64,000 nt of DNA, taken from positions 406,782,001 to 406,846,000 of the forward strand of contig OZ024741.1 in NCBI GenBank assembly GCA_964016885.1, written 5' to 3'. Below the pieces are notes generated by a model, which saw only the letters and a program-made list of their open reading frames with translations, ran no database searches and was not told the origin of the DNA. Origin of the DNA: Eledone cirrhosa. Its lineage: Eukaryota. Position 1 is the stretch's first letter, and every line of letters begins with the position of its first letter. This document shows positions 1,252-64,000 of this stretch, one piece after another. A program made the position numbers and the translations under genes.

Positions 1252-1885
1252 TCAAGTTATAAATTGGGTGTTGAGTTCTCGTCTATTATTGATTGGTGGT
1301 TGTGTTTTGTCTATAATTAGTGCTTCCTTAATTCTAAGATTGCCGAGGTTTCTTTCCTTAGTTTCTATCCTAATTGTTATAGTTTTGTCAGTGTTTTTGC
1401 ATTTAACTAGGTGTTTCTTAAATGAGGAAGCGTTAGTATTGAGGTGTTCTTTTATTCTTATGTGGAGTGGTCTGGTGGTGCTACCTACGTAGAAGTTGCT
1501 GCATTTGTCACACTCTAGTCTGTATACGACGTAAGCCTGGTGGCATAGGTCTGTGTCGTTGATGGGGCAGTTGGCTAGCCTGCAGCAGTTGTCATGTCTG
1601 GTGGAGTGTCTTTTGGTTAGCTGTCCGCGTAGAGAAGGACCTGAGTGGGCCAGTTGGATATCTAGTCCCTCTCGTCTGATGGCTCTGCGGATGGCTGTTG
1701 TTGTTTCGTCAATGAAGTGTGGGAGCTTCAGGAAGCAAGTGTTAGTGCCTCGGGTGTGATGTCCTCTGTTCTTTCTGGCACGGTTTGTGGTGGATGTCGT
1801 GTATCTATTCAGTTTGAGTACTTCCAGGAAATGTGTGGTGTGTGTGTCTCTGTCTCTAACGTCGGTGCATTTGTTCCGGATACGT
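1252..1885 (-). pseudogene. PLE thumb/linker and GIY-YIG endonuclease (shifted frame)
   Basis: Manual translation: CRLANCPIND..CHQAYVVYRLECDKCSNFYVGSTTRPLHIRIKEH..LRIKEALII..INNRRE; TGA at 1254-1252. Confidence 0.9.
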
Positions 1886-3833
1886 GTAGTTCGTTCCTTA
1901 TGTATCCGAACTTAGCGCCGGCTGGGAGGGCCGATCTGAAATGTACGAACAGGTCCCTGCTGGCGGCTTTTTTATAGAAGCAGGTGTGGATGTTGCCTTC
2001 CTCTGTTACTCCGAGTTGGAAGTCCAGTAGGGATAGGGATCCGCGGTCATCGGGGTGTTCCATGCTGAACTTTATACTGGCGTTCATGCTGGAGAATGTT
2101 GTGTATATTTTATCTGCCTCTTCACGGGATGATATAAGGATGAGTATGTCATCTACATATCGGGTGAAGAAGATATGGGAATGGCAGGTGTTGAGGGATC
2201 GACATTCTAGCTGGTTCATATAGGTGATGGCCAGCAGGCCCGATAGGCTGGATCCCATGGGTAATCCTGTTGTCTGTCTGTATGTGTGGTGGTGGAAGGT
2301 GAAGTACGTGTTGTCTACTGTGAAGGACAAAAGCTGGTGTATGTCCGTCGGATGGAGGCCGTAGCAATGGATGTCCTCTGCGACCACGCAGTCCGTCAAT
2401 AAATCGACAGCTGGATGAGCGGGGACTGTAGTGTAGAGGGAGACAACGTCGAGGCTAAAGGCGTATCTATTTAGTTTAAGTTGTTCTGGCTGGAGTTGGT
2501 GTAGTCTACGTATAACTTCGTCAGAGCTACTGACATGCCCGGGAAAGGTGGAGAGTAGAGGCTTGAGGACCTGGGAGAGGAGCCAGGAAATTTTGTATAG
2601 GGGTCCTTCTATGCTAGAGACGATGGGTCTTATTTGCGTCTTAGTACTATTCTTGTGGGTCTTGATGAGGTGGTAGAAAGTGGGCAGTCTGCTATTTCTA
2701 GTGGTGTAGTTGAGCTTAACTTTATTTGGGAGTTGTCTTCTCCTACAGATATCGAACCAGATGGAGTTGGTCTGTTTTTCGATCTGGGCTGCAGTCATGT
2801 CCGGGATCTCTGTATATAATTCATTGTCGCTTAGGTGTTCAAAGGCTAGGTTGTTGTATGTGACTTGAGAGATGACGCAAAACTCTTTACCTTTGTCGGA
2901 TGGTAAGTATATAAGTTCCCTATTCCGTAGGTTCTTCAGGGCGAGTTGTTGTGTCCTGGAGAGGTTTGGGGCTATCTTCTTCTGTTTCCGTAAGATGTTA
3001 AATACGGAATGTTTTAGCCTCGAGAGTTTTTCTTCAAGCTCGCGGTTGGCAGGCGGTTGACAGAGTGGGCGATCCAGTTGGTATATCGGGAATCTGGGTT
3101 TGTTAGATTCCGTGGTGTTGTTGCCGAGAGTCGATATCCATTTTAGTTGGTAGGCAGCCCGACAGAAATTTGTTTCTATGTCGAGCCATAATTTGTCGTC
3201 CAGTCTCTGTTTCAATATGAACTTGGGACCCAGGCTGAGGAGGTCTAATTCCTCTCGGGAGAGGGATCCTGTCAAGTCTGTGACGAGGTGTTTTGCGTCA
3301 GGTGTGTTGTTGGTCGGGGCGCCGCTAGGTTCGGTGTTGGTACCGTCTTGTTCGTCTCTGTTGGTGCTTAGAGTTGGGATGTTGTTAAGACGGTTAGCCG
3401 TGCTGAGTTTGAGAATTTTTTGCGTTAGGCGTATTTTCTCGTAGTCTCGGCGATGGTGGTATGACCTGTCTATAGTGGTGGAGATAACTCTGGACAGAGG
3501 TTCTGGGGTTTCAGCGAGTTGTGGTACAAGGCTGAAAATAGTCCGTATGTGATGTTGTAGCGTGCGGTGTAGGTGTTGTATGAGTTTTCTTAGGCAAAAT
3601 GTTTGTATGTAACTAAGTGATGGTTTGAGGCCTGGTGATTTGAAGCATGTTGGTAGGTGCAAGTTTTTGATAGTTTTGGGGATGATGTTGTTATTCAGGC
3701 ATCGTTTTAGGACGTTTATTTGGCAGCCGGCTTTGGCGCGCTTTTCAGATAGCTGGAAGAGTTTCTTTACAGTTGTGAACTGGGCCTGGGTCAGGCGTAA
3801 GGAAAGGATGAGGTTATAGTTCACTTGAAGCAT
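1809..3833 (-). pseudogene. PLE reverse transcriptase (frameshift near 1885 separates the endonuclease)
   Basis: Motifs LPSDKG, KTHK..IRPIVS, SLDVVSLYT, GLPMGSSLS, RYVDD, LSLLD, YKK. Confidence 0.93.
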
Positions 3834-4080
3834 TGTGTAATGAGGTATAAACGTTTGTATATGTATAATAAGGTCAAAACAATAACCTCATGCATTCTCC
3901 CACACACTTAAACAAGCATGTACAAAAAAAAAAAAAAAAAAAAAACCTTTTAAAGGGAGACTACTCTTTATCCACCTAACCTTAACTCTTTGACATTAGA
4001 GATAGAACAGATACTCTATACCATTTCCTGTCAGCATGACTTGGCAAGCTATTTAGAACACTGGTTTAACCACTTTACTT

Positions 4081-7299: not shown

Positions 7300-9708
7300 C
7301 GGCGCTGCCGGTGGTGGAAGTCTTCGTGAGGGGGAAGCCACGGCGGGGGTGGCGCAGAGGTGGGGAGGGAAGAGCAGCGTAAGGGCAGTCGACGGCAGGA
7401 AAATTGAAGGGGCGAGTTCGAGCGAGAAGTAGAGAGATGGATCGAAGAGGGCATACTGCTTCCCTGGAAGGAGGAGGTGAAGTGCGGAGTATTGCTGTTG
7501 ATGGCGGTGGTGCAACCCACGAAGAGCAAGGTGAGGCCGGTGCTGGACTATCGAGAGCTGAACGAGCACGTGTCATGCCACACGGGTGGCGAGGTCACGG
7601 ATGTCTGTGGGGAAACCCTGCGTGAGTGGAGACGCATGACGGGGGGTTCAGCGATCGTGGATCTAAAGTCGGCTTACTTGCAGTTGCATATAGATGAGAA
7701 GCTCTGGCGGTATCAGCTGGTCAGGTATAAGGGCCGGACATATTGCCTGACCAGGCTCTGTTTCGGGCTGAGCTCCGCACCGAAGATCATGGCGGCGGTC
7801 CTCAAGACCGCTCTGGGGAGGGCCGACAAGATAAAGAGGGCTACTAACTCCTACATTGACGACATCCTAGTGGACGAGTCGGTGGTGTCGACGGCGGAGG
7901 TCACGAGCCATTTGTGGAGGTATGGACTGACTGCGAAGCCATCAGAAGCATTGGAGGGAGGAGCCGCGCTGGGACTTAGGCTACGGCGAGATAAGACGGG
8001 CGTTTTGGTGTTCCAGAGGGGAAACGAAGTTCCGGAACTGGGCCCAAGTATGAATAGGCGGGAGCTTTTCTCGGTGTGTGGAAAGCTGGTGGGTCACTAC
8101 CCGATCGCTGGGTGGCTCCGGACGGCATGAAGCTATGTCAAGAGACGAGCGGGAGGGGTGACTTGGAGTGACAGAGTGGGAGAGAGAACAGTGGCCATGA
8201 TGCAGGAGATCGTGGGGAGGGTGAAGGCCGACGACCCAGTGCGGGGACGCTGGTATGTTCCCAAATCACGGAGCGGGACCGTATGGTGCGATGCCAGCAG
8301 CATAGCGCTGGGTGTCACGTTGGAGATAGGAGGTGTTGAGGTCGAGGATGCAGCCTGGCTTAGAAAGAAGGACGACTGCAGCCACATCAATGTGGCCGAG
8401 CTGGACGCGGTGTTGAGAGGGGTGAACCTCGCCCTGCGGTGGGGGCTGCGCACCATCGAGATACGCACCGACTCGGCTACCGTACTCGGATGGGTAAGAT
8501 CAGTGCTCACCAGTGAGAAGAGAGTGCGAACGAGAGGCGCGGCGGAGATGCTGATAAAACGCCGCCTGGGAACGTTAGGAGAGCTGGCCACCGAGTTCGA
8601 CCTGAAGCTGAGTGTAGTGTTCGTGCCTTCAGAGAAAAATAGGGCGGACATCTTAACTAGAGTGAAGAAAGCCTGGATGGAAGCGCCGGAGGAGGTAGAG
8701 GATGAGATATCTGCCGTGTGTCGGCTGACCGAGTTAGACCTGAAGGGGTTGCATGACATGCACCACATGGGGGTGGATAGGAGCCTGTTCCTAGCCAGGA
8801 GAATCGACTCGGACGTTAGCAGACACGGTGTTCGGGGGGTCGTTAGAGGCTGCGTCCGATGTCAGTCCATTGATCCCGCCCCGGGTGTACACGAAACGGG
8901 AAGCCTCCTGGTGGATCGCGACTGGAAGCGATTAGTGGTGGATGTGACGCACTACCGGCAGGGAACGTACCTCTCGATGGTCGACTGTAGACCAGGTCGA
9001 GTGGCGATATGGAGGGAGATGAAGACCGGAACGGCCGAGGAAATCGTGCGGACGTTGAGAGAGGTGTTCTTGGAGCAGGGCCTTGTGGATGAACTGCTGA
9101 TGGACAACAGCGCAGCGTTCCGCTCGGAGGCACTGAGGGGGATGCTCGAGGGATGGAAGGTGGACCGTTTCTTCAGAGCGGCGCACAGGCCGAGCAGGAA
9201 TGGAATCGTGGAGCGACACCACCGGACGATCAAGGCAATGGCGGAGCGGGGCCATATCTCACCAATGGAGGCAGTGTTCTGGTACAATATGTCCCCTCGG
9301 GTTGGACAGGTCGAGGAATCGGTGCCACACAGAGCAGTATTCAAATACGAGTGGCGGCACCCGTGCACGCCACCACAACGGCCAGTGGGGAGAGAGAGTG
9401 CATTCGTGCAGGTGGGCGAAGAAGTCTGGGTTAAGCCCCCAGATGCACGGTGCACATCTCAATGGGGAAGGGGAACGGTGACGGCCGTAAATTCAAAGAA
9501 CAATATGTCCGTGGACGGGGTACCACGTCATGTCCTGGATGTAAGAAGAATCACTGTATCGACGGACTCCGAGGAAGAGGAAACCCAAGATGAGGTGGAA
9601 ACCCAGAGCCCTGCCCCAATACTACGAAGATCGCAACGGAGTCGTAGACCACCGACCTGGACGGCAGACTTTCATATGCAGAGGGACGAGGGGGAAATTG
9701 ATCCTTGA
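7300..9708 (+). pseudogene. pol: Gypsy pol (protease remnant, RT, RNase H, integrase) with a premature TGA at 8128-8130
   Basis: RT: VRPVLDYRELN, DLKSAYLQ, FGLSSAP, YIDD. RNase H: CDAS, AELDAV, TDS, NRAD. Integrase: HH-CC and D..D..E (NGIVER). Confidence 0.93.
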
Positions 9709-10247: not shown

Positions 10248-10327
10248 AAATATATATAGGGGAGTAACCACAGCTTAAAAAGTTATTCAATACATTAGTA
10301 GAGTGTAACCATCATTATTTAATATAG

Positions 10328-10511
10328 GGCCGTGGATTGGCAGTATCGGTATAGGGTCGGTCGCCATGCTTTCCAGCATAGTTACGTCCCTTTACGATCT
10401 GAGTTCAAATCCCGCCGAGGTTGACTTTGCCTTTCATCCTTACGGGGTCGATAAAATAAAGTACCAGTAATGCACTGGGTATTTGCTGGCCTTGTGCCAA
10501 AAGTAGAAACA
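10328..10511 (+). mobile_element. tRNA-derived SINE, full length
   Basis: A-box TGGCAGTATCGG, B-box GAGTTCAAATCC, body gcctttcatccttacggggtcgataaa. TSD attatttaatatag. Confidence 0.93.
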
Positions 10512-10525
10512 ATTATTTAATATAG

Positions 10526-10712
10526 GGCCGGTGGATTGGCAGTATCGCTAGAGGGTTGGACGCCATGCTTTGACACATAGAGTTACGGCCCTTGCCATTC
10601 TGAGTTCAAATCCCGCCGAGGTTAACTTTGCCTTTCGTCCTTACGGGGTCGATAAAATAAAGTACCAGTAATGTACTGGGTAATTACTGGCCTTGTGCCA
10701 AAAGTAGAAACA
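10526..10712 (+). mobile_element. tRNA-derived SINE, second subfamily, in tandem with the previous copy
   Basis: Same boxes. Third copy of attatttaatatag at 10713-10726. Confidence 0.93.
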
Positions 10713-10867
10713 ATTATTTAATATAGAAATAACTTCTACAGGACTAGAAATAGCAGCCAATTGCCGGCCTTCCTCAATTAACTGCTATTTCTAGCAATTA
10801 AAAGACATTTTGATTTTGTGATTATACGTGCATACTTATCTATTTTCACGTAAAAGGCGGGCCCAGA

Positions 10868-17843: not shown

Positions 17844-18541
17844 TCTCCTTATAATATATAACCAGCAATTTCTCTGTCTGTCTGTCCGACAGTGGAAACA
17901 CGTGCGCGCATGGTTGCTACCTCTCTCTCTCTCCAGCTATCCCTCTCTTTTAGTCTGTCTGTTTCTCTCACTCTCACTCTTTCTCTTTGTAACACACTAA
18001 CATTCCTCCCCTCTATCGCTGTGACAAATGGGGATATGGAGGAGGAGGAGGAGGAGGAGGAGGAGGAGGAGGAGGAGGAGGAGGAGAGAGTCACTTCGTC
18101 ACTTCACCTCTGCCTTTCTTTCTCTCCCCTCTCACTCCCTCATTACGTACAGACATTAGGGCGGAGGATTGGCAGAATCTGTAGAGAGTCGGACACCATG
18201 CTTCATAGCATGGAGTTACGTCCGTGGGTAATTGCTGGCCTTGTGCCAAAAGTAGAAACAATTATTAGAAACATTGCTTCATTTTTACATATCTAAGCAT
18301 TAGTAAAATAACTAATAATTTCAAAAGTAATTTTTCAATTCCAATTGTTATGAACAGCAAAACATTAATAATAATTTTGTTCTAAGAAATATATATACAT
18401 TTCTGTGTGTGTGATATATATATATATACATACACAGAAATATATATATATACACACAGAAATATATATACATTTCTGTGTGTGTAATATATATATATAT
18501 ATATATACACACACAGAAATATATATACATTTCTGTGTGTG

Positions 18542-21353: not shown

Positions 21354-21837
21354 TGACGAAGGCCAGTTAAGCCTGAAATGCATAGACGGTTGTCCCCCTT
21401 GCTTCTGCTGGACATCACCAGAGGGCGTTAGACCCCCAGTGTTTGCATAGCTACGGCTTCCTAAAACTATATTTCTTTGGAGATACAAAATATCTATACA
21501 TATTGTATATAGCTATGCTTGAAGCGAAAACCTATTTCTTTTCTATCATAAATTGAGCCAACTTATGCAGCTTCATATGCAAATGAGATTAATCACCTCA
21601 TTTACACAGACGAGAAAAGTATATATTCTCGCCTGTCTTCTAGTCCAGCAGTCGCAAGCGGTGGGAGGGACCGTCCTGACGAAGGCCAGTTAAGCCTGAA
21701 ATGCATAGACGGTTGTCCCCCTTGCTTCTGCTGGACATCACCTGAGGGCGTTACCCCCCCCCCCCCCTCCCGGTGTTTGAATAGCTACGGCTTCCTAAAA
21801 CTATATTTCTTTGGAGATACGAAATATTTATACATAT
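21354..21837 (+). mobile_element. Retrozyme-like element: 323-nt non-coding monomer, ~1.5 tandem copies
   Basis: 21354-21503 is repeated from 21677 (period 323). HHR at the junction, no credible ORF, flanked by simple repeats. Confidence 0.85.
21670..21713 (+). ncRNA. Minimal type I hammerhead ribozyme
   Basis: accgtc CTGACGA AGGC cagttaa GCCT GAAA TGCA TA gacggt; predicted cleavage after 21707. Confidence 0.93.
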
Positions 21838-21960
21838 ATATATATATATATACAGGGAATGTAATGTCCAATTACTGTAGGTTCACCCGAGTGAGCACTC
21901 AATACGTAGTTTCCAGTCAGTAAAGAGGTGTAGAACTAAGCAGAGTGTAATTATAATAAT

Positions 21961-22177
21961 GGTTTCTTATATAGGCACAAGGCCAGCAATTTTGGGGAAG
22001 GAGAAAGTCGATTGAATCGACGCAAGTACATTACTGGTACTTTATTTTATCGACCCCGTAGGGATGAAAGGCAAAGTTAACCTTGGCGGGATTTGAACTG
22101 AGATCATAAAGGGCCGTAACTGTACACTACAAAGCATGGTGTCCGACCCTCTACCGATACTGTCAATCCAACGCCCT
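21961..22177 (-). mobile_element. SINE, full length, whose 5' head seeds the adjacent array
   Basis: SINE body in reverse. TSD gtgtaattataataat at 21945-21960 and 26324-26339. Confidence 0.92.
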
Positions 22178-25100
22178 AACAAGGTGTCCCACCCTCTACC
22201 GATACTGTCAATCCACCACCCTAGCATGGCGTCGCACCCTCTACCTATACTGCCAATCCACCACCCTAACAGGGTGTCAGACCCTCTACCGATACTGCCA
22301 ATCGACAGCCCTAGCATGGTGTCCGACCCTCTACCGATACTGCCAATCCACCAACCTAACATGGTGTCAGACCCTCTACCGATACTGCCAATCCACCACC
22401 CTAGCATGGTGTCCGACCCTCTACCGATACTGCCAATCCACCACCCTAGCATGGTGTCCCACCCTCTACCGATACTGCCAATCCACCACCCTAGCATGGT
22501 GTCCGACCCTCTACCGATACTGCAAATCCACCACCCTAGCATGGTGTCCGACCCTCTACCGATACTGCCAATCCACCACCCTAGCATGGTGTCCGACCCT
22601 CTACCGATACTGCCAATCCACCACCCTAGCATGGTGTCCGACCCTCTACCGATACTGCCAATCCACCACCCTAGCATGGTGTCCCACCCTCTACCGATAC
22701 TGCCAATCCACCACCCTAGCATGGTGTCCGACCCTCTACCGATACTGCCAATCCACCACCCTAGCATGGTGTCCCACCCTCTACCGATACTGCCAATCCA
22801 CCACCATAGCATGGTGTCCCACCCTCTACCGATACTGCCAATCCACCACCCTAGCATGGTGTCCCACCCTCTACGGGGACTGCCAATCCACCACCCTAGC
22901 ATGGTGTCCCACCCTCTACCGATACTGCCAATCCACCACACTAGCATGGTGTCCCACCCTCTCCGGGTACTGCCAATCCACCGCCATAGCATGGTGTCCG
23001 ATCGTCTACCGATACTGCCAATCCACCGCCCTAGCATGGTGTCCCACCCTCTACCGATACTGCCAATACACCACCCTAGCATGGTGTCCGACCCTCTACC
23101 GATACTGCCAATCCACCGCCCTAGCATGGTGTCCCACCCTCTACGGGTACTGCCAATCCACCACCCTAACATGGTGTCCGACCCTCTACCGATACTGCCA
23201 ATCCACCCCCCTAGCATGGTGTACGGCCCTTTACCGATACTGCCAATCCACCACCCTAGCATGGTGTCCGACCCTCCCCCGATACTGCCAATCCACCACC
23301 CTAGCATGGTGTCCGACCCTCTACCGATACTGCCAATCCACCACCCTAGCATGGTGTCTGACCCTCCCCCGATACTGCCAATCCACCACCCTAGCATGGT
23401 GTCCGACCCTCCCCCGATACTGCCAATCCACAACCCTAGCATGGTGTCCGACCCTCCCCCGATACTGCCAATCCACCACCCTAGCATGGTGTCCGACCCT
23501 CCCCAGATACTGCCAATCCACCACCCTAGCATGGTGTCCGACCCTCCCCCGATACTGCCAATCCACCACCCTAGCATGGTGTCAGACCCTCCCCCGATAC
23601 TGCCAATCTACCACCCTAGCATGGTGTCAGACCCTCCCCCGATACTGCCAATCTACCACCCTAGCATGGTGTCAGACCCTCCCCCGATACTGCCAATCCA
23701 CCACCCTAGCATGGTGTCAGACCCTCCCCCGATACTGCCAATCTACCACCCTAGCATGGTGTCAGACCCTCCCCCGATACTGCCAATCTACCACCCTAGC
23801 ATGGTGTCCGACCCTCCCCCGATACTGCCAATCCACCACCCTAGCATGGTGTCAGACCCTCCCCCGATACTGCCAATCCACCACCCTAGCATGGTGTCCG
23901 ACCCTCTACCGATACTGCCAATCCACCACCCTAGCATGGTGTCCGACCCTCCCCCGATACTGCCAATCCACCGCCCTAGCATGGTGTCCGACCCTCCCCC
24001 GATACTGCCAATCCACCACCCTAGCATGGTGTCCGACCCTCCCCCGATACTGCCAATCCACCACCCTAGCATGGTGTCCGACCCTCCCCCGATACTGCCA
24101 ATCTACCGCCCTAGCATGGTGTCCGACCCTCTACCGATACTGCCAATCCACCACCCTAGCATGGTGTCCCACCCTCTACCGATACTGCCAATCCACCGCC
24201 CTAGCATGGTGTCCCACCCTCTACCGATACTGCCAATCCACCACCCTAGCATGGTGTCAGATCCTCCCCCGATACTGCCAATCCACCACCCTAGCATAGT
24301 GTCCCACCCTCTACCAATACTGCCAATCCACCACCCTAGCATGGTGTCCCACCCTCTACCGATACTGCCAATCCACCGCCCTAGCATGGTGTCCCACCCT
24401 CTACCGATACTGCCAATCCACCGCCCTTGCATGGTGTCCCACCCTCTACCGATACTGCCAATCCACCACCGTAGCATGGTGTCCCACCCTCTACCGATAC
24501 TGCCAATGCACCACCCTAGCATGGTGTCAGATCCTCCCCCGATACTGCCAATCCACCACCCTAGCATGGTGTCCCACCCTCTACCGATACTGCCAATCCA
24601 CCGCCCTTGCATGGTGTCCCACCCTCTACCGATACTGACAATCCACCACCCTAGCATGGTGTCCCACCCTCTACCGATACTGACAATCCACCACCCTAGC
24701 ATGGTGTCCCACCCACTACCGATACTGCCAATCCACCACCCTAGCATGGTGTCCGACCCTCTACCGATACTGCCAATCCACCGCCCTAGCATGGTGTCCC
24801 ACCCTCTACGGGTACTGCCAATCCACCACCCTAACATGGTGTCCCACCCTCTACCTATACTGCCAATCCACCACCCTAGCATGGTGTCAGATCCTCCCCC
24901 GATACTGCCAATCCACCACCCTAGCATGTTGTCCTACTCTCCCCCGATACTGCCAATCCACCACTCTAGCATGGTGTCCCACCCTCTACCGATACTGCCA
25001 ATCCACCACCCTAGCATGGTGTCCCACCCTCTACCGATACTGCCAATCCACCGCCCTTGCATGGTGTCCCACCCTCTACCGATACTGCCAATCCACCACC

Positions 25101-26327
25101 CTAGCATGGTGTCCCACCCTCTACCGATACTGCCAATCCACCACCCTAGCATGGTGTCCCACCCTCTACCGATACTGCCAATCCACCACCCTAGCATGGT
25201 GTCCCACCCTCTACCGATACTGCCAATCCACCACCCTAGCATGGTGTCCGACCCTCTACCGATACTGCCAATCCACCGCCCTAGCATGGTATCCGACCCT
25301 CTACGGGTACTGCCAATCCACCACCCTAACATGGTGTCCGACCCTCTACCGACACTGCCAATCCACCACCCTAACATGGTGTCCTACCCTCTAGCGATAC
25401 TGCCAATCCACCACCCTAACATGGTGTCCGACCCTCTACCGACACTGCCAATCCACCACCCTAACATGGTGTCCTACCCTCTACCGATACTGCCAATCCA
25501 CCGCCCTAGCATGGTGTCCGACCCTCTACCGATACTGACAATCCACCACCCTAGCATGGTGTCCGACCCTCTACCGATACAGCCAATCCACCGCCCTAGC
25601 ATGGTGTCCCACCCTCTACGGGTACTGCCAATCCACCGCCCTAGCATGGTGTCCGACCCTCTACCGATACTGCCAATCCACCGCCCTAGCATGGTGTCCG
25701 ACCCTCTACCGATACTGCCAATCCACCGCCCTAGCATGGTGTCCCACCCTCTACGGGTACTGCCAATCCACCGCCCTAGCATGGTGTCCGACCCTCCCCC
25801 GATACTGCCAATCCACCACCCTAGCATGGTGTTCCACCCTCTACCTATACTGCCAATCCACCGCCCTAGCATGGTGTCCCACCCTCTACGGGTACTGCCA
25901 ATCCACCACCCTAACATGGTGTCCCACCCTCTACCGATACTGACAATCCACCGCCCTAGCATGGTGTCCCACCCTCTACGGGTACTGCCAATCCACCACC
26001 CTAACATGGTGTCCCACCCTCTACCTATACTGCCAATCCACCGCCCTAGCATGGTGTCCCACCCTCTACGGGTACTGCCAATCCACCGCCCTAGCATGGT
26101 GTCCCACCCTCTACCGATACTGACAATCCACCACCCTAGCATGGTGTCCGACCCTCTACCGATACTGCCAATCCACCGCCCTAGCATGGTGTCCGACCCT
26201 CTACCGATACTGCCAATCCACCGCCCTAGCATGGTGTCCGACCCTCTACCGATACTGCCAATCCACCGCCCTAGCATGGTGTCCCACCCTCTACCGATAC
26301 TGCCAATCCACGGCCCTAGCATGGTGT
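22133..26327 (-). repeat. 45-bp minisatellite, 93 units, derived from the SINE tRNA head (A-box)
   Basis: Unit agggtggtggattggcagtatcggtagagggtcggacaccatgct matches the SINE 5' end. (26318-22133)/45 = 93 exactly. Confidence 0.97.
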
Positions 26328-26403
26328 AATTATAATAATAAAAGGAAGATTTGTTATGTCTTTGTTAGGTTTATTGAGAAGTGGCGCGCGTTTCACAGCA
26401 AAC

Positions 26404-26486
26404 GTCTGACGAGCTTTTGATTCCAGAATCGGGCTAGATCGATACAGATCAAACCTTGGGCTGATCAATAGCGAAACGCGCGTCAC
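26404..26486 (+). ncRNA. Hammerhead motif (long stem II; stem I truncated) inside inverted repeat 26344-26523
   Basis: gt CTGACGA gcttttgat..atcaatagc GAAA CGCGCG TC ac. Confidence 0.75.
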
Positions 26487-26524
26487 TACTCAATAAACAT
26501 AATGAAGACATAACAAATCGTCCT

Positions 26525-28821: not shown

Positions 28822-30658
28822 CTCGTTCACACTCACGTACATATACACACACTCACGTACATATACACACACACACACTCGCGTACACACACTCACGTAC
28901 ATACACACACATACACACTCACGTACACATACTCACGTACACATACTCACGTACACACACACACACTCACGTACACACACTCACGTACATATACACACAC
29001 TCACGTACATATACACACATATACTCACGTACATATACACACACACACACTCACGTACATACACACACTCACGTACATATACACACACACTCACGTACAT
29101 ATACACACACAAACTCACGTACATATACACACACACTTACTCACGTACATATACACACACACACACTCACGTACATACACACACACGCACACACTCACGT
29201 ACATATACACACACACTCACGTACATATACACACATACCCACGTACATATACACACACACACACTCGCGTACATATACACACATACACTCACGTACATAT
29301 ACACACACACACTCACGTACATATACACACACACACTCACGTACATATACACACACACTCACGTACATATACACACACACATACTCACGTACACACACGT
29401 ACATGTACACACACACACGCTCACGTACATACACACACACACACACACGTACATATACACACACACACTCACGTACATACACACACACACACACACACAC
29501 ACTCACGTACATATACACACACACACGCTCATGTACATATACACACACACACACACTAACGTACATATACACACACGCTCATATACATATACACACACAC
29601 ACTCACGTACATACACACACACACTCACGTACATATACACACACACTCACGTACATACACACACACGCTCACGTACATATACACACACACACTCACGTAC
29701 ACACACACACACACACACACACACTCACGTACATATACACACACACTCACGTACATATACACACACACTCACGTACATACGCACACACACACGTACATAT
29801 ACACATATACACTCACGTACATACACACACACACATACTCACGTACATACACACACACACGCTCACGTACATATATACACACACACTCACGTACATATAC
29901 ACACTCACGTACATATACACACACATACACTCACGTACATATACACACTCACGTACACACACACACACACTCACGTTCATATACACACACACACTCACGT
30001 ACATACACACACACTCACGTACACACACACACACACTCACGTACACACACGTACATATACACACACACACGCTCACGTACATATGCACACACACACACGC
30101 TCACGTACATATACACACACACACACGCTCATGTACATATACACACACACACTCACGTACATACACACACACATACTCACATACATATACACACACACTC
30201 ACGTACATATACACACACGCTCACGTACATATACACACACACACTAACGTACATATACACACACACACTCACGTACATATATACACTCACGTACATATAC
30301 TCACTCACGTACATATGCACACACACTCACGTACATACACACACACTCACGTATATATACACACACACTCACGTACATATACACACACACTCACGTACAT
30401 ATACACACTCACGTACATATACACACACACCCACTCACGTACATATACACACACACACTCACGTACATATACACACACACACACACTCACGTACACACAC
30501 TCACGTACATATACACATGCTCACGTACATATACACACACACACTCAGGTACATATGCACACACACACTCACGTACATACACACACACACACACTCACGT
30601 ACATTCACACACACACTCACGTACATTCACACACACATACACACGAATACCCACACAT
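28822..30658. repeat. Complex (CA)n-ctcacgtacatata minisatellite, ~1.8 kb
   Basis: Seen directly. Confidence 0.95.
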
Positions 30659-41081: not shown

Positions 41082-43058
41082 CTTCTCTGATCTACTAACT
41101 CCCACCTTCTCTGGGATATTATGACTATAACTTCTCTGAGCTACCAAGCCCCGCCTTCTCTGGGATATTATCACTATAACTTCTCTGAGCTACCAAGCCC
41201 CGCCTTCTTTGGGATATTATCACTATAACTTCTCTGAGCTACCAAGCCCCGCCTTCTCTGGGATATTATCACTATAACTTCTCTGAGCTACCAAGCCCCG
41301 CCTTCTCTGGGATATTATCACTATAACTTCTCTGAGCTACTAAGCCCACCTTCTCTGGGATATTATGACTATAACTTTTCTGAGCTACTAAGCCCCACCT
41401 TCTCTGGGATATTATCACTATAACTTCTCTGAGCTACTAAGCCCCACCTTCTCTGGGATATTATCACTATAACTTCTCTGAGCTACTAAGCCCCACCTTC
41501 TCTGGGATATTATCACTATAACTTCTCTGAGCTACTAAGCCCCACCTTCTCTGGGATATTATCACTATAACTTCTCTGAGCTACTAAGCCTCGCCTTCTC
41601 TGGGATATTATCACTATAACTTCTCTGAGCTACTAAGCCCACCTTCTCTGGGATATTATCACTATAACTTCTCTGAGCTACTAAGCCTCGCCTTCTCTGG
41701 GATATTATCACTATAACTTTTCTGAGCTACCAAGCCTCGCCTTCTCTGGGATATTATCACTATAACTTCTCTGAGCTACCAAGCCCCGCCTTCTCTGGGA
41801 TATTATCACTATAACTTCTCTGAGCTACTAAGCCCCACCTTCTCTGGGATATTATCACTATAACTTCTCTGAGCTACTAAGCCCCGCCTTCTCTGGGATA
41901 TTATCACTATAACTTCTCTGAGCTACTAAGCGCCGCCTTCTCTGGGATATTATCACTATAACTTCTCTGAGCTAAGCCTCGCCTTCTCTGGGATATTATC
42001 ACTATAACTTCTCTGAGCTAAGCCTCGCCTTCTCTGGGATATTATCACTATAACTTCTCTGAGCTAAGCCTCGCCTTCTCTGGGATATTATCACTATAAC
42101 TTCTCTGAGCTTAGCCCCGCCTTCTCTGGGATATTATCACTATAACTTCTCTGAGCTACTAAGCATCGCCATCTCTGGGATATTATCACTATAACTTTTC
42201 TGAGCTACTAAGCCTCGCCTTCTCTGGGATATTATCACTATAACTTCTCTGAGCTTAGCCCCGCCTTCTCTGGGATATTATCACTATAACTTCTCTGAGC
42301 TACTAAGCCCACCTTCTCTGGGATATTATCACTATAACTTCTCTGAGCTACTAAGCCCCACCTTCTCTGGGATATTGTCACTAAAGACTCTCTAAGCTAA
42401 GCCCCGCCTTCTCCGGGATATTATCACTATAACTTCTCTGGGCTACTAAGCCCGCCTTCTCTGGGATATTATCACTATAACTTCTCTGAGCTACTAAGCC
42501 CCACCTTCTCTGGGATATTATCACTATAACTTCTCTGAGCTACTAAGCCCCACCTTCTCTGGGATATTATCACTATAACTTCTCTGAGCTACTAAGCCCC
42601 ACCTTCTCTGGGATATTATCACTATAACTTCTCTGAGCTACTAAGCCCCACCTTCTCTGGGATATTATCACTATAACTTCTCTGAGCTACTAAGCCCCAC
42701 CTTCTCTGGGATATTATCACTATAACTTCTCTGAGCTACTAAGCCCGCCTTCTCTGGGATATTATCACTATAACTTCTCTGAGCTACTAAGCCCCACCTT
42801 CTCTGGGATATTATCACTATAACTTCTCTGAGCTACTAAGCCCCACCTTCTCTGGGATATTATCACTATAACTTCTCTGAGCTACTAAGCCCCACCTTCT
42901 CTGGGATATTATCACAATAACTTCTCTGAGCTACTAAGCCCCACCTTCTCTGGGATATTATCACTATAACTTCTCTGAGCTACTAAGCCCCACCTTCTCT
43001 GGGATATTGTCACTAAAGACTCTCTAAGCTAAGCCCCGCCTTCTCTGGGATATTATCA
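41082..43058. repeat. 49-bp minisatellite, ~40 units
   Basis: Unit cttctctgagctactaagccccaccttctctgggatattatcactataa. Confidence 0.97.
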
Positions 43059-43134
43059 CGAAAGCTATTGAACACACTGATGCCAATTAACGAAATAGTT
43101 TGCACTTTTTATATTACCATATATATTGATTGTG

Positions 43135-48004: not shown

Positions 48005-51000
48005 AAAATACGTAGTTTAGAAAGCCACAACAATGCAGATGGGAAATCTCGAGGTAGGAAGTGAATGATAGATAGGAGAAATAGAAGAAAGTGAAAATTG
48101 AGAGAGACAAAGATGAAAACAAAACAAAGGTAGAAGGGTTACCGTAGTGAAGATTTAATCACAATATTTCGGGCTCACACCCATCAACGGGGGAAAGTTC
48201 CAAAAAGGGGGGGAACAGGCTAAGCCGGAGAAAGTTGTGATGTCGTTAAGACAGGAATGCCGTTATGGGGAGAAAATTTAAATGAGGGAAAGAATGCGCG
48301 TGCGCGTGATAGGCTGTGGCAAAAGCTACTGACCAAATGGGTTAAATCAAGAGGGTGCGCTAGCGTGTGAAAGCCGTAAAATATGTGTGTGTAAATATAT
48401 ATGTGTGTGTAGCTGTGTGTGTATATGTGTAAGTGTGTATATGTGTGAGTGTGTGTGTGTGTGAAAGATAGTGGGCTGTAGAAGCTGGAAATCAGAGGGT
48501 GTGAAAGGTGGTAGGTTGTAAAACATGTGTGCGTGTATAAATATAGATGTGTGTGTGTATGCGTATGGGTATATATGTGTGTGTAACTGTGTGTATATAT
48601 GTGTAAGTGTGTATATGTGTGAGTGCGTGTGTGTGTGAAAGATAGTGGGCTGTAGAAGCTGGAAATCAAAGGGTGTGAAAGGTGGTAGGTTGTAAAAACA
48701 TGTGTGCGTGTATAAATATAGATGTGTGTGTGTATGCGTATGGGTATGCATATACGTGCGTGTGTGTAAAAATAGCAGGCCGTGAGGGCTGTGAATGGTC
48801 ACTATGGTTAAATTAGCCATGTCAGCTCATTTCTCTCAGCCCGGTTGTCAAGTGGGGGTCTGAGGTTCTTAATAACAAGTGCTTCCTTTATCCTTAAGGA
48901 TCCGATGCTGCGTTCAGTCGCTAGGACTGTGACCAAGGGTCTACCCTGTGGGTTTCCGCATTTAAGGATGTGTTTACGGAAGGAAGATGCGTTGGTGTTG
49001 ATATGTTCCTTGATACGAACATGTAGAGGTCGGATGGTGCTACCTATGTAAAACTTGTTACATTTATCGCATTGAATCTTATATACGACATAGGTGCGTA
49101 GGCAATCTGCCCCCCGTATCGGGCAGTTGCTGAGGGAACACGTCCCATCTGACTCGTCGGGTTTGTTGGAGAGGCATCTTCGCAGCGAAGGTCCTGTGTG
49201 GGCCAAATGTATGTCAAGTCCCTCCGTCCGTATGGCCCTGCGGATGGCGTTCGTGGTATATTCACTCAGGTGGGGGATTTTAAAGAAGCACCTGCTTTTA
49301 TTTAAGTTTCTAGTGGGTGTCTGTCTATTGGGTCTGGGGTCTCTAATTCCGTTAATCAGTCGCTTGGGATATCCATTAGACTTGAGTAGATTACGGAATT
49401 GCGTGATATGGGTGAGACCACCCATCGGGTCGCTGCATCTGTTAGTGATCCGTGTCAGTTCATTTAGGACATAGCCTCTCTTAGCGTTGTTGGGGAGGGC
49501 TGAGTTGTAATGCACAAATAAGTCCTTGCACGCTGCTTTGCGGTAGAAGGTGGTGTTTATGTCTCCTTCTTCCGAGATGTTGATACGGAAGTCGAGGAGG
49601 GCGAGTGACCCGTCTTCTCCTGGGTGTTCGATGGTGAAATCGACGTGATGGTCAGTATCGTTGAAGATTTGGTGAATTTCATTCGCCATCTCCCGGGAGA
49701 AGTAAGTATCAGGATGTCATCAACGTATCTGGAGTAGAAGGCGACGGCGTTGGGTTGGCAGGTATTGAGTGCCTTGCGTTCCAGGTGGTCCATGTACGAG
49801 ATCGCAAGTATGCCGGACAGACTAGAGCCCATAGGTAGCCCAGAGATTTGTTTGTACGTGTGGCCGAGGAAATTGAAGAGTGCATTATCCACAACGAAGG
49901 AGAGGAGTTGGTAGATGTCCGTGTGTGTGAGTCCGAAGCAGTGTAAGTTAGATGCTCGGACTCGTTCGGTCAACAGGTCGACGGCTGGGGATGCTGGTAC
50001 GGAGGTATAAAGGGCGACCACATCAAGACTGAAGGCATAACCGTTGTCCTTTCTGGTGTTGGGCGCCAGATGGTGTAGTCGCTCCAAGACCTCCTTTGAG
50101 CTGCAGACGTGGGCTGGTAGTGTGTGTAGAATGGGTTTCAGTAGTGTGGAGAGCAGCCACGATATTTTGTAGAGTGGGCCCTCCACGCTAGAGACAATGG
50201 GCCTGATTTTCAAATCGGGTCCTTGTTTATGTGTTTTAACCATGTGGTAGAAGGTGGGTAGTTTGCTGTTTCGAGTCATTATGTTGTTTTTTACCTTCTT
50301 TGGCAGTTTTCGTTGGACACAGATGTTAGTCCATATGGTGTTAATGCCTTCCTCGATTAGAGTCGAGGAGGTCCCTGTGACTTTCGAGTAGAGGCTGTCG
50401 TCATTAAGATGTTGGAGAGCTAAGTTGTTGTAGGTCTCTCTCGAGATGACACAGAATTCTTTCCCCTTGTCAGAGGGAAGGTACACAAGGTTCCTGGATC
50501 TTAGGTTGGTGAGAGTATTAAATTGTGCATTGGTGAGGTTGCGTTTATTGTGTGTGTGTGTGTGTGTGTTGGGAAAGGATGTTAGAGATAGAATGTTTCA
50601 ACCTGAGTAGTTTAGTGTCAAGTTCGTGGTTGGTGGGTGGGGGGTGGAGTGGGTTGTCGAGGTGGTACGTGGGGAGTGTGGGGTGGGTTGTGGGGTTGTA
50701 ATCGATCTCGGTGTTGTTTTGGATGGCGGTTAGCCATTTCAGTTGATATGCTGTCCGACAGAAGTTGGTTTCGATGTCGAGTTTCAGTCTATCATCGAGA
50801 CGCTGTGTAATGATGAACTTGGGTCCGAGGCGCAGAAGTTCGAGTTCGTCGTTGGTGAGGGTACCGGTTAGGTCGGTAACGAGGTGTGAAGCATCGTTGG
50901 TAGGTAGATCGCTGTTGGGGGGTGTAGCGGAGGGTGTTGTATAGCTGTTGCCCCTGGTGTGGTTGTAGTCGGTCCGTCTGTGGGAGCGGATGTTGTCATT

Positions 51001-51343
51001 GTAGTATTTGTTTACAGTCCATTCGTATTTCCGTATAAGGCGCTGTTTATCGTATTTGACTCTGGTGTAGTAACACTGATCGATAGCTTTGCGTATTTCC
51101 TGGACCTGGTGGTCAGGGGTGAGGGTTGGAGCTATACGATCTATGTGCTCGGAAAGCGTTTGTATATGGAGTCGCAGTTGGTGGTGGTTGTGTCGTAGTA
51201 TTTTCTTGATAAACGTACGTTGAATGTGGCGGATGGTGTTTTCGAAGGATGGTGATCGTAAACATTCGGGTAGATGTATATTCCTGATGGTGGTTGGAAT
51301 GATGTTGTTCTTTAGGCAGCGTTTTAAGAAGGTAATTTGGCAT
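48005..51343 (-). mobile_element. Penelope-like element, same clade as 668-4283, frameshifted and 5'-truncated
   Basis: RT 49557-50486 (LPSDKGKEFCV, YVDD). Thumb and GIY-YIG 48808-49689 (VVYKIQCDKC..YIGST..RIKEH). CA-rich 3' UTR with a ~180-bp duplication. Confidence 0.93.
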
Positions 51344-61149: not shown

Positions 61150-64000
61150 CATATTGTGCCAACTTGGCGCGCCAATGGACGCGTCGTCCACTTCTCGTGA
61201 CTGGAGATGAAACAGGTGGCTCGCTGGGACAGCAATCTGTTGGAGTTTCTGGTGTAGAGACTGTAACAGTATCCATGATGGCTTTTTTTAATCTGTCCAC
61301 GCTGACAGAATTCTATTTACCATCTAGATCGAGAATAAAATATTTCGGATATTTTTTTAGAACACGATAAGGGCCAGAATATGGAGGTCGAAGATAAGCT
61401 GAGATGGTGTCGTTTCGAACGAAAACGTGTGTCCAATCTTTAATGTCTGAAGGTACGTGTGTGGCTGTGTTCTGTTGACGGGTGCTTGCAGGAGCAAGGT
61501 GAGACATATATTGTCGAAGACGGTGTACGTATGATCCTGGGTCTGGAACATTCTGAGGAGAGATGGGAGCAACCATCTGACCAGGTAGAACCAAGGTGGT
61601 GCCGTACACTAATTCTGCAGGTGTGTGTCCGAATTCCTCCTTAACGGTGGATCGAATGCCCAGAAGGATGAGTGGTAGGTATTCAAACCAGTGGGCCTTG
61701 TCTGGATATGCTTTTATTGCAGTTTTCAATTGGCGATGGAATCTTTCCACGAGACCATTAGCTTGCGGGTGATAAGCTGTCGTGCGGATGTGTTTACATC
61801 CTAACAGGCAAGTCAGTTCCCTGAAGAGGTGGGAGTTAAATTGGCGTCCTCTGTCCGTTGTTATCTTCGCTGGGGCGCCATAACGTGATACCCAGTGTAA
61901 AACCAAAGTTTTAGCGACTGTTTCCGCTGAGGTATCATTTATGGGAAAAGCCTCAGGCCAACGAGAAAATCGATCTATGCAGGTGAGCAAGTGTGTGTAG
62001 TTCTGTGATGGTGGTAGAGGTCCGACGATGTCGATATGCACATGATGAAAACGTGCATCAGGTTGCGCGAATGTGCCAAGTGGTGTTTTGATGTGTCTGT
62101 GGACTTTGGCTTTCTGGCAGGCAATGCAGCTCCTGGACCAGTGGCGCACGTCCTTGTTAATGTTAGTACACACAAAACGAGCAGAGATGAGTTTCTGTGT
62201 AGCCCAGATTCCCGGGTGAGACAAGCAGTGTAAAGCAGAAAAAACTTGTCGACGATGCATCTGTGGTACGTACGGTCGTTCATGACCGGTAGAAAAGTCG
62301 CACCAAATTTGTCCCGGAGAAGAAGGAATGGGAACTTGCTGAAACTTGAGGGATGGCGAATCTCGGAGCTTGATAAACTCTTCGTCAGTCTCTTGGTCAG
62401 CTGCGATCTGTTGAAGGTCGATGCCTGAATGCACATGTATTGCGTTCAGCTGGATTCGGGACAGTGCGTCGGCTGCTACGTTGTGTGATCCCTTGATATG
62501 CCGAATATCAGTTGAATATTGGGAGACAAAATTCAGGTGTCGGAGTTCTCTCGGTGAATGTCGATCAGGTTTGGTACGGAACGCAAAAACTAGTGGTTTA
62601 TGGTCCGTGTAGATCACGAAATCCGATCCTCCGAGCATGTGCCGAAAATGTTTAACCGAAAGATAGGTTGCCAAGAGTCCGCTTAGAAAAGAAGGATAAG
62701 GGTTGCCACACGCCGTCGACATGTTGTTGTATAACGCCTCTAACCCCCGTGTCTGATGTGTCCACTAGCAGCGAAAGAGGAGCGCCAGACCTGGGAAAAA
62801 CGAGCATGGAAGCGTTTGCCAACATTTCCTTCAGGCGGTTAAAAGATGTTAATTCTTCTTCGTTTAGAGTGATCTCTTCGTTTTTGCGAGTCCGGTTACG
62901 GAGAAGGTCCGTGAGGAGTCTGGCTGCGTCGGAACAATGAGGGATAAAACGCCTATAAAAATTCACCAGACCGAGGAATTCACGTAGTTTCCGAAGTGAT
63001 GTAGGTGCGGGAAAACTGCGGATAGCTTCTACTTTCTCGGGAAGTGGACGAATGCCGTCTTTATCGATGATGTGCCCGAGAAAGGACAGTGAAGGAACGC
63101 CGAGAAGGCACTTGCTGGGGTTGATGATGATGATACCGTACTCAGCTAAACGTTGGAAAAGGAGATCTAAGTGCTTCTCGTGTTCATGCTCGGAAGTACT
63201 TGCTACCAGCACGTCATCAATATACGCGTATACGAAGGGTAGATCGCGTAACACCGTGTCAATAAACCGCTGAAAAGTTTGTGCAGCGTTGCGCAGACCG
63301 AACGGCATTCGCAGGAATTCGAATAAACCGAACGGTGTTGTGATTGCGGTCTTCGGAATGTGTGCAGGCTCCATAAGTATCTGGTTATATGCACGCATCA
63401 AATCTACCTTGGAAAAGATGCGTGCGTCTTGCAGAGAGGCGGAAAAATCGTGCAGGTGAGTTACAGGGTAATTATCGGGCACTGTAGAATTGTTAAGTGC
63501 ACGATAATCCCCACATGGTCGCCAATCATTCTCGTTTTTTTTGGAACAAGGTGTAGGGGTGCAGACCAGTTGATGGAGGAAGGGCGAATGATTCCGAGGT
63601 CCAGCATGTGTTGGAACTCCTGCTTGGCGATTCTCAATCGGTCTGGAGGCAGTCTCCTTGGTCGGGCAGCTGTGGGTGGTCCCCTTGTCTCGATGTGGTG
63701 CGTGACACTATGCTTAATGGGACCATCCTTAAATACTGGGAGAGTGATGTCTGGGTATTTCTGGAGAATGCCGTTGTACCGCGAAGGCTCTGACTGGCAA
63801 ATTACAGGGCTCACTGTGGATTGCGTGGTAAATATACCTCTCACAGTGAGGTTTGTGGTGGTGTCAATAAGCCTCCGGTTCTTCATATCCATCAGAAGGT
63901 TGAAGTGGTGTAGAAAATCGGCTCCTAGGATAGGGGTCGGCAGGTCTGCCACGACGAACACCCATTGAAAACGCCGCCTCAGGCCTAAATTGAGGGTCAG
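61150..64000 (-). pseudogene. pol: Ty3/Gypsy pol (protease, RT, RNase H, integrase), frameshifted; runs off the window
   Basis: [68 protein letters not shown]. Confidence 0.95.

What the first reader, a model, noticed from the sequence alone, without database searches (positions are those of the whole stretch)
21945..26339. SINE head amplified 93-fold inside a single target-site duplication
Seen: the 45-bp unit is the SINE's first 45 nt, including the Pol III A-box. The array is contiguous with one SINE body. Array and SINE are flanked by a 16-bp TSD (gtgtaattataataat). The distal end stops mid-unit, where the TSD end (ACAC on minus) matches SINE-internal gACACcatgct. There is no net indel over 4185 bp, and variants cluster in blocks (e.g. 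ccctcccccg at ~23270-24090). Inference: a microhomology-driven template jump during insertion duplicated the head and seeded a minisatellite, leaving 93 A-boxes upstream of one B-box.
Basis: partly seen in the sequence, partly recalled or inferred. Interest (0 to 1): 0.75.

Follow-up and report, generated by a model that had tools for sequence, protein, structure and literature searches.

The report
SINE-head minisatellite shared across genome
The first 45 bases of a small jumping element are repeated 93 times inside one inserted copy, but the same repeat sits in about a hundred other copies, mostly near chromosome ends, so it is a family of satellite-like repeats of a kind known from reptiles that likely passes between neighbouring copies during DNA repair and likely has no function.

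Summary
In detail: 93 indel-free 45-nt SINE heads plus a 6-nt remnant, one body, and a real 16-bp TSD (paralogous empty sites carry one copy). The interpretation of a one-off template jump does not hold. The same head-to-head junction recurs genome-wide (2,229 + 2,052 exact hits) in about 100 inspected SINE copies with different TSDs and body subfamilies, from 2 heads to about 98 kb. 66 of 69 such arrays end at the normal SINE 5' end; this one's mid-unit end is an exception. Multi-head copies avoid the middles of the four big chromosomes (0 of 50, against 48 of 191 matched copies). Nine carry junction bases their own truncated first head never had. Neighbouring arrays share rare unit variants, including this one with an array 2.6 Mb away. 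Best reading: a SINE-derived minisatellite (sSat, described in squamates) copied into existing SINE insertions by local ectopic gene conversion, then expanded by unequal exchange. It is probably inert, since the two A-boxes nearest the B-box are mutated. The scan already noted this family and the spreading idea elsewhere in this genome. No reads span the locus.

The parts
21945..21960 (.). Target-site duplication, copy at the SINE 3' end; its first bases overlap the SINE's ATT-type tail
   Evidence: exact 16-mer, two copies in window; one copy in paralogous empty sites
21961..22132 (-). SINE body and tail, long-tail subtype, 75-90% identical to 22 other long-tail bodies
22089..22099 (-). Pol III B-box, full match to RGTTCRANTCC
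   Evidence: sequence; consensus from PMC7954030
22133..22222 (-). Two heads nearest the body (units 93, 92); both A-boxes carry a G-to-A change on top of the family-wide departure from TRGYNNARNNG
   Evidence: consensus
22133..26317 (-). Array of 93 x 45-nt SINE heads, no indels, mean pairwise difference 8.4%
23258..24112 (-). Block of units with the rare GG variant at unit positions 25-26, shared with the array at G000:C2:404.15 Mb
26318..26327 (-). Distal remnant: last 6 nt of a head plus 4 nt (ACAC) that belong to both head and TSD
   Evidence: the 6 nt are absent from empty sites
26324..26339 (.). Target-site duplication, copy at the 5' (distal) end
21856..21944 (.). Left part of the dispersed host repeat into which the SINE inserted
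26340..26520 (.). Right part of the host repeat, with long inverted repeats

Best explanation
This is one locus of a genome-wide SINE-derived minisatellite family whose 45-nt head array was likely copied into an already inserted SINE from a neighbouring array during DNA repair and then likely grew by unequal exchange. Shown: a normal TSD-bounded insertion, a fixed family-wide junction, confinement to distal regions and small chromosomes, junction bases missing from some recipients' own first heads, and variant sharing among neighbours. Inferred: (1) the SINE inserted by target-primed reverse transcription, here probably 5'-truncated at head position 40 on the ACAC microhomology, or full-length with a later ACAC-to-ACAC deletion; (2) a break near the predicted hairpin at positions 41-54 was repaired off a nearby multi-head copy, using head and body homology; (3) slippage and unequal exchange expanded and partly homogenised the units. 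The array is probably neutral and not a working Pol III promoter.
For: Junction is family-wide: 2,229 and 2,052 exact hits; 50 of 6,474 consensus-head copies carry it; all main body subtypes are represented. Not scattered like retrotransposed copies: 0 of 50 in the 60-320 Mb middles of C1-C4 against 48 of 191 matched consensus-head copies, Fisher p 5e-6. Not copied in cis: in 9 of 47 TSD-bearing loci the TSD abuts a first head lacking 3 or more first bases while the next head is complete. Local spread: pairs within 3 Mb share variants (0 of 1,000 length-stratified permutations; 7 of 1,000 after removing this locus, its two neighbours, distal C1 and the two commonest variants). The GG variant occurs at 4 loci genome-wide, one 2.6 Mb away, and that array also shares G33. 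4 of 6 chromosome-placed 40-nt-period loci lie within 19 Mb of distal C3, with different flanks. Junctions at 40, 41, 42, 45 and 50 bracket the predicted hairpin.
Against: No transfer was observed directly and no second haplotype or species was available. Variant sharing could reflect exchange between arrays that already existed. The GG variant also occurs on C8 and on an unplaced contig, so it can recur. The majority allele at position 38 is not shared by neighbours more than by chance (38 of 75 pairs; 1,037 of 2,000 permutations). In arrays of 2-4 heads the first and last head agree at position 38 (9 of 9 against 2 of 27, counted by eye), which needs the conversion tract to overwrite most of the first head. 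At this locus the truncated-recipient version offers only 10 nt of homology on the distal side. The C21/C23 variant is not shared with the neighbours. How the first junction arose is not explained.
Confidence: 0.6

Rival explanations
1. The second head is added during reverse transcription, either by an end-to-end jump from the RNA 5' end onto a 5'-half RNA cut at the hairpin, or because Pol III starts at an upstream A-box of a multi-head source. DNA-level exchange only expands the array afterwards.
For: The junction lands on the exact first base: only 5 hits at 2 loci for junctions onto bases 3-8. Donor ends bracket the predicted hairpin. First heads show ordinary 5' truncation. Copies with one head plus a partial head exist (L101, L327).
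Against: New insertions scatter over chromosome middles, but multi-head copies, 2-head ones included, do not. The 40-nt form clusters on one arm. Heads within a locus share private variants and the position-38 allele, against jumps between independent RNAs.
Confidence: 0.2
2. One reading: a one-off microhomology jump at this insertion left a 10-nt direct repeat around the head, which seeded the array in place; each locus would be an independent local origin.
For: The 10-nt direct repeat is present. Small flanking repeats are an accepted seed for minisatellites (PMC3389668, passages). Several periods exist (27, 40, 41, 42, 45, 50), so origins did recur. L121 has a 4-nt flank match at the 45-nt phase. 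This locus or one like it could be a founder.
Against: 66 of 69 loci have no such remnant. The 27-nt phase, which has a built-in 4-5 nt microhomology, is found at only 13 loci, against about 100 inspected for the homology-free 45-nt phase. Truncated first heads cannot supply the junction. Rare variants are shared with a neighbour.
Confidence: 0.12
3. The array is functional: a TFIIIC/Pol III landing array, or a coding repeat (1,410-codon open frame on the plus strand).
For: The B-box is intact; the open frame spans the array.
Against: A-boxes work with a B-box through TFIIIC (PMC7954030, passages). The two nearest are mutated and the first unmutated one starts 156 nt from the B-box. No single base change can make a stop in that frame (0 of 135). 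There is no Pfam match. Other long arrays are also indel-free (140 of 140 intervals in L282). The other ORFs scanned gave only retroelement domains or nothing.
Confidence: 0.05
4. Assembly artefact inflating the copy number.
For: No read or contig laid spans the locus.
Against: 49 distinct units with graded, block-wise variation; sibling arrays cover a smooth range of 2-93 units and more.
Confidence: 0.03

Closest known systems
SINE-derived satellites (sSat1-3) of squamates, Vassetzky, Kosushkin and Ryskov 2023, PMC10702118 (parts 1-4 of 5 of the text read; supplements not seen)
   Same: Tandem repeats of part of a tRNA-related SINE with one terminal unit running on to the SINE end; one dominant unit boundary plus minor variants; a few to hundreds of units; many loci; subtelomeric bias.
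   Different: The unit is shorter (45 nt against about 70-290), starts at the SINE's first base and holds the A-box only. Arrays sit inside intact TSD-bounded insertions. The host is not a squamate. The parts read do not describe transfer between existing SINE copies.
TE-derived minisatellites of the human genome, Ahmed and Liang 2012, PMC3389668 (passages seen)
   Same: Minisatellites born inside SINEs, hotspots within the element, expansion by local duplication, seeding by small direct repeats in a minority.
   Different: There the phases are varied and no genomic hotspots were seen; here one phase dominates and is regionally confined.
Microhomology at 5' junctions of truncated non-LTR insertions (R1/R2), PMC2718515 (passages seen)
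   Same: 1-5 nt shared between target and element at truncated 5' ends, like the ACAC overlap here.
   Different: Explains the distal junction only, not the head array.
Octopus tRNA-derived SINEs OK/OR1/OR2 (Ohshima and Okada 1994; only the reference line seen in PMC3531059; resemblance recalled)
   Same: tRNA-like head with A- and B-box; recalled likeness of the body.
   Different: No sequence comparison was run; the family name and the organism are not established here.

Membership tests
SINE (tRNA-derived) | Short, dispersed, high copy number | tested here: met
   6,079 + 66,641 exact head-body junctions; element about 200-220 nt
SINE (tRNA-derived) | Internal A- and B-box | tested here: met
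   B-box full match; family A-box differs from TRGYNNARNNG at the conserved A
SINE (tRNA-derived) | TSD and simple-repeat tail | tested here: met
SINE (tRNA-derived) | Detectable tRNA homology | tested here: inconclusive
   ARAGORN found none in the window; Rfam gave no tRNA match for one single-head copy; the fold shows acceptor-like pairing and a hairpin at 41-54, z -2.2
SINE (tRNA-derived) | Pol III transcription and a partner LINE | not testable with these tools
   no RNA run listed; partner LINE not sought
SINE-derived satellite (sSat) | Tandem unit is part of a SINE, with a terminal unit running to the SINE end | tested here: met
SINE-derived satellite (sSat) | At least four middle monomers, many loci, dominant unit boundary | tested here: met
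   91 middle units here; about 100 loci inspected; the 45-nt phase dominates
SINE-derived satellite (sSat) | Subtelomeric bias against evenly spread SINEs | tested here: met
   0 of 50 against 48 of 191 in the middles of C1-C4; this locus is 9.5 Mb from the end of a 416-Mb contig
SINE-derived satellite (sSat) | Copy-number variation between orthologous loci | not testable with these tools
   no related genome held; reads uninformative
Multimeric SINE that retrotransposes as a unit (Alu-like dimer) | One source subfamily, copies scattered like other insertions | tested here: not met
   all body subtypes present; regional confinement

The most novel reading that the evidence does not exclude
The head array is an infectious minisatellite. 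It spreads without its own transposition by converting nearby SINE copies, using a fragile hairpin in the SINE head as the entry point, so that tens of thousands of SINE insertions act as landing pads and unit variants form geographic clines along chromosome arms. That would give a traceable model of how a satellite family colonises new loci.
Probability: 0.45. Interest if true: 0.55.

Novelty: new member of a known kind. Interest (0 to 1): 0.3.

Why it matters
How minisatellites start and reach new loci is still largely unexplained (PMC3389668 accounts for 6% of TE-derived cases). Here each array sits in a TSD-marked insertion, so recipient and imported sequence can be told apart, which makes lateral spread testable with population data. 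The single locus itself is ordinary within its family and shows no sign of function.

Tried and rejected
Extra upstream head bases in ordinary full-length copies (a multi-head master for the whole family): none; 66 of 70 were single-head with no such bases, 3 were 45-nt multi-head and 1 a 27-nt form. A T at unit position 5 as a founder mark: partly search bias; arrays chosen for C in the last head have C in 153 of 219 middle units. T-headed copies are still more often multi-head (38 counted by eye among the 100 listed of 113 hits, of 894, against 50 of 6,474); this is unexplained. Pol III termination at the TTT after base 45: would give 46-47-nt periods; none found for the consensus pattern. 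Coding role: rejected. G-quadruplex drive: weak, mean G4Hunter-type score 0.78 in my own script. tRNA scans were blank. Sequencing runs: no RNA holder listed; laying contigs and short reads gave only paralogues. One search folded the wrong strand and was repeated. The first 30 hits gave 3 of 30 multi-head; this overstates the rate because they lie on distal C1. Literature searches listed no paper on SINE-head arrays in a mollusc; subscription journals are not covered and no supplements were opened.

Full report
Observation. The minus strand reads: 16-nt TSD, 6-nt remnant of a head, 93 heads of 45 nt (26317 down to 22133), a 172-nt SINE body, and the TSD again. There are no indels and 49 distinct units. 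Neighbouring units are more alike than shuffled ones (3.0 against 3.76 differences; 0 of 5,000 shuffles). Single-head copies in the window start at the same base, so the unit is the element's first 45 nt. The SINE lies in another dispersed repeat. 24 of 28 fetched paralogues matched the left flank and show the 16-mer, or a close variant, once; two hold independent single-head SINEs at the same site. The TSD is therefore genuine.

The family. The SINE has at least 72,720 copies with an exact head-body junction. The head-to-head junction has 2,229 and 2,052 exact hits for its two alleles. A pattern that marks each multi-head copy once gave 113 hits (100 listed) and 50 hits for the consensus allele. 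From I analysed 87 distinct rows plus the window. 18 rows were dropped (13 matches inside arrays, 5 without a B-box at the expected place) and one ran off the fetched DNA, leaving 69 including the window. They hold 1.4-93 heads, cover all body subtypes, and 35 have a TSD scoring 10 or more. 66 of 69 end within 9 nt of the SINE's first base; the window is one of three that end mid-unit. Of the 30 loci viewed, 28 have two or more A-box cores. Much longer arrays exist, one of about 98 kb on C1 judged from hit lists and its two ends.

Junction geometry. Junctions land on the first base of the SINE; only 5 hits at 2 loci land on bases 3-8. The donor side is nearly always base 45. Minor forms end at 40 (8 loci), 41 and 42 (1 locus each) and 50 (one region). 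These positions bracket a predicted hairpin at 41-54. The 27-nt phase, the only tested one with built-in microhomology, occurs at 13 loci. Microhomology therefore does not explain the dominant phase.

Origin. Three results point to import at the DNA level. First, position: 0 of 50 multi-head copies lie in the 60-320 Mb middles of C1-C4, against 48 of 191 matched consensus-head copies (p 5e-6); for C1-C4 as a whole it is 5 of 50 against 96 of 191 (control counted by eye from the listing). Products of retrotransposition should scatter. Second, in 9 of 47 TSD-bearing loci the TSD abuts a first head missing its first 3-12 bases while the next head is whole, so the junction cannot have been copied from the locus itself. 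Third, neighbours share variants. Among 113 loci, pairs within 3 Mb share more than permuted pairs (0 of 1,000; 7 of 1,000 in the strictest subset). The window's GG variant occurs at 4 loci genome-wide, one 2.6 Mb away with a different body and flank, which also shares G33. The 40-nt form clusters on distal C3.

Results against that reading. Position 38 shows no neighbour effect. The GG variant recurs on C8 and an unplaced contig. The C21/C23 variant is not in the neighbours. First and last heads of short arrays agree at position 38. No transfer was seen directly, and the origin of the first junction is open: a template jump or a chance flank match in one founder copy are both possible.

The distal end. 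Ordinary copies truncated at head positions 35-40 exist (4 clear cases among 156 head-bearing copies), and 1-5 nt overlaps are usual at truncated 5' junctions (PMC2718515, passages). The ACAC end is thus explained by a truncated insertion that later received the array, or by a deletion between two ACAC copies.

Function. The B-box matches the consensus. The family A-box lacks the conserved A, and the two nearest copies lose a conserved G as well; the first unmutated A-box starts 156 nt from the B-box. The 1,410-codon frame is open because no single change can make a stop in it, and it has no Pfam match. No RNA run was listed, and no read spans the locus, so expression and length are untested.

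Comparison. The structure meets the tested features of SINE-derived satellites of squamates (PMC10702118, parts 1-4 of 5 read). It differs in its short A-box-only unit and its TSD-bounded setting. TE-derived minisatellites are common in humans (PMC3389668, passages). Nine searches listed no report for a mollusc. The likeness to octopus SINEs is recalled, not tested. Earlier notes of this scan describe the same family and the neighbour-spread idea at other places in this genome; they prompted the neighbour tests and are not counted as evidence.

Verdict. A real feature and a new member of a known kind; interest 0.3. The lateral-spread reading has probability about 0.45 in its strong form and would merit about 0.55.

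Noticed in passing
window 10314-10726: Head-to-tail dimer of the same SINE with three copies of a ~12-nt target repeat.
   Followed up: partly
window 21856-21944 and 26340-26520; L415, L419: The host is an abundant dispersed repeat with long inverted repeats; two other copies carry independent single-head SINEs at the same site, so it is a preferred target.
   Followed up: partly
window 41082-43059: Second minisatellite, 49 nt x 41, not matching the SINE head; an older SINE starts about 70 nt after it.
   Followed up: no
window 28828-30645: 1.8-kb degenerate CA-rich array with 14/22/24/44-nt periods.
   Followed up: no
window 1252-3887 and 48808-51342: Two reverse transcriptase plus GIY-YIG ORF sets, Penelope-like (label recalled; domains).
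   Followed up: no
window 7408-9708 and 61313-63707: Split ORFs with reverse transcriptase, RNase H-like and integrase domains, LTR-retrotransposon-like.
   Followed up: no
window 18156-18260: SINE copy with the B-box and central body deleted.
   Followed up: no
window 21360-21500 and 21680-21830: Local duplication of about 130 nt just left of the insertion.
   Followed up: no
L281, L282 (G000:C1:10.318-10.417 Mb): About 98-kb head array whose proximal end has no SINE body and whose distal flank is the same as that of a 10-unit array beside it; both end mid-unit near head position 38.
   Followed up: partly
L291, L292, L331 (G000:C2:21.85-21.96 Mb): Long array mixing 45- and 50-nt units.
   Followed up: partly
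L356 (G000:C3:377.2 Mb): One array with two 40-nt and six 45-nt junctions.
   Followed up: no
L146: Multi-head copy whose body also holds its own internal tandem repeat.
   Followed up: no
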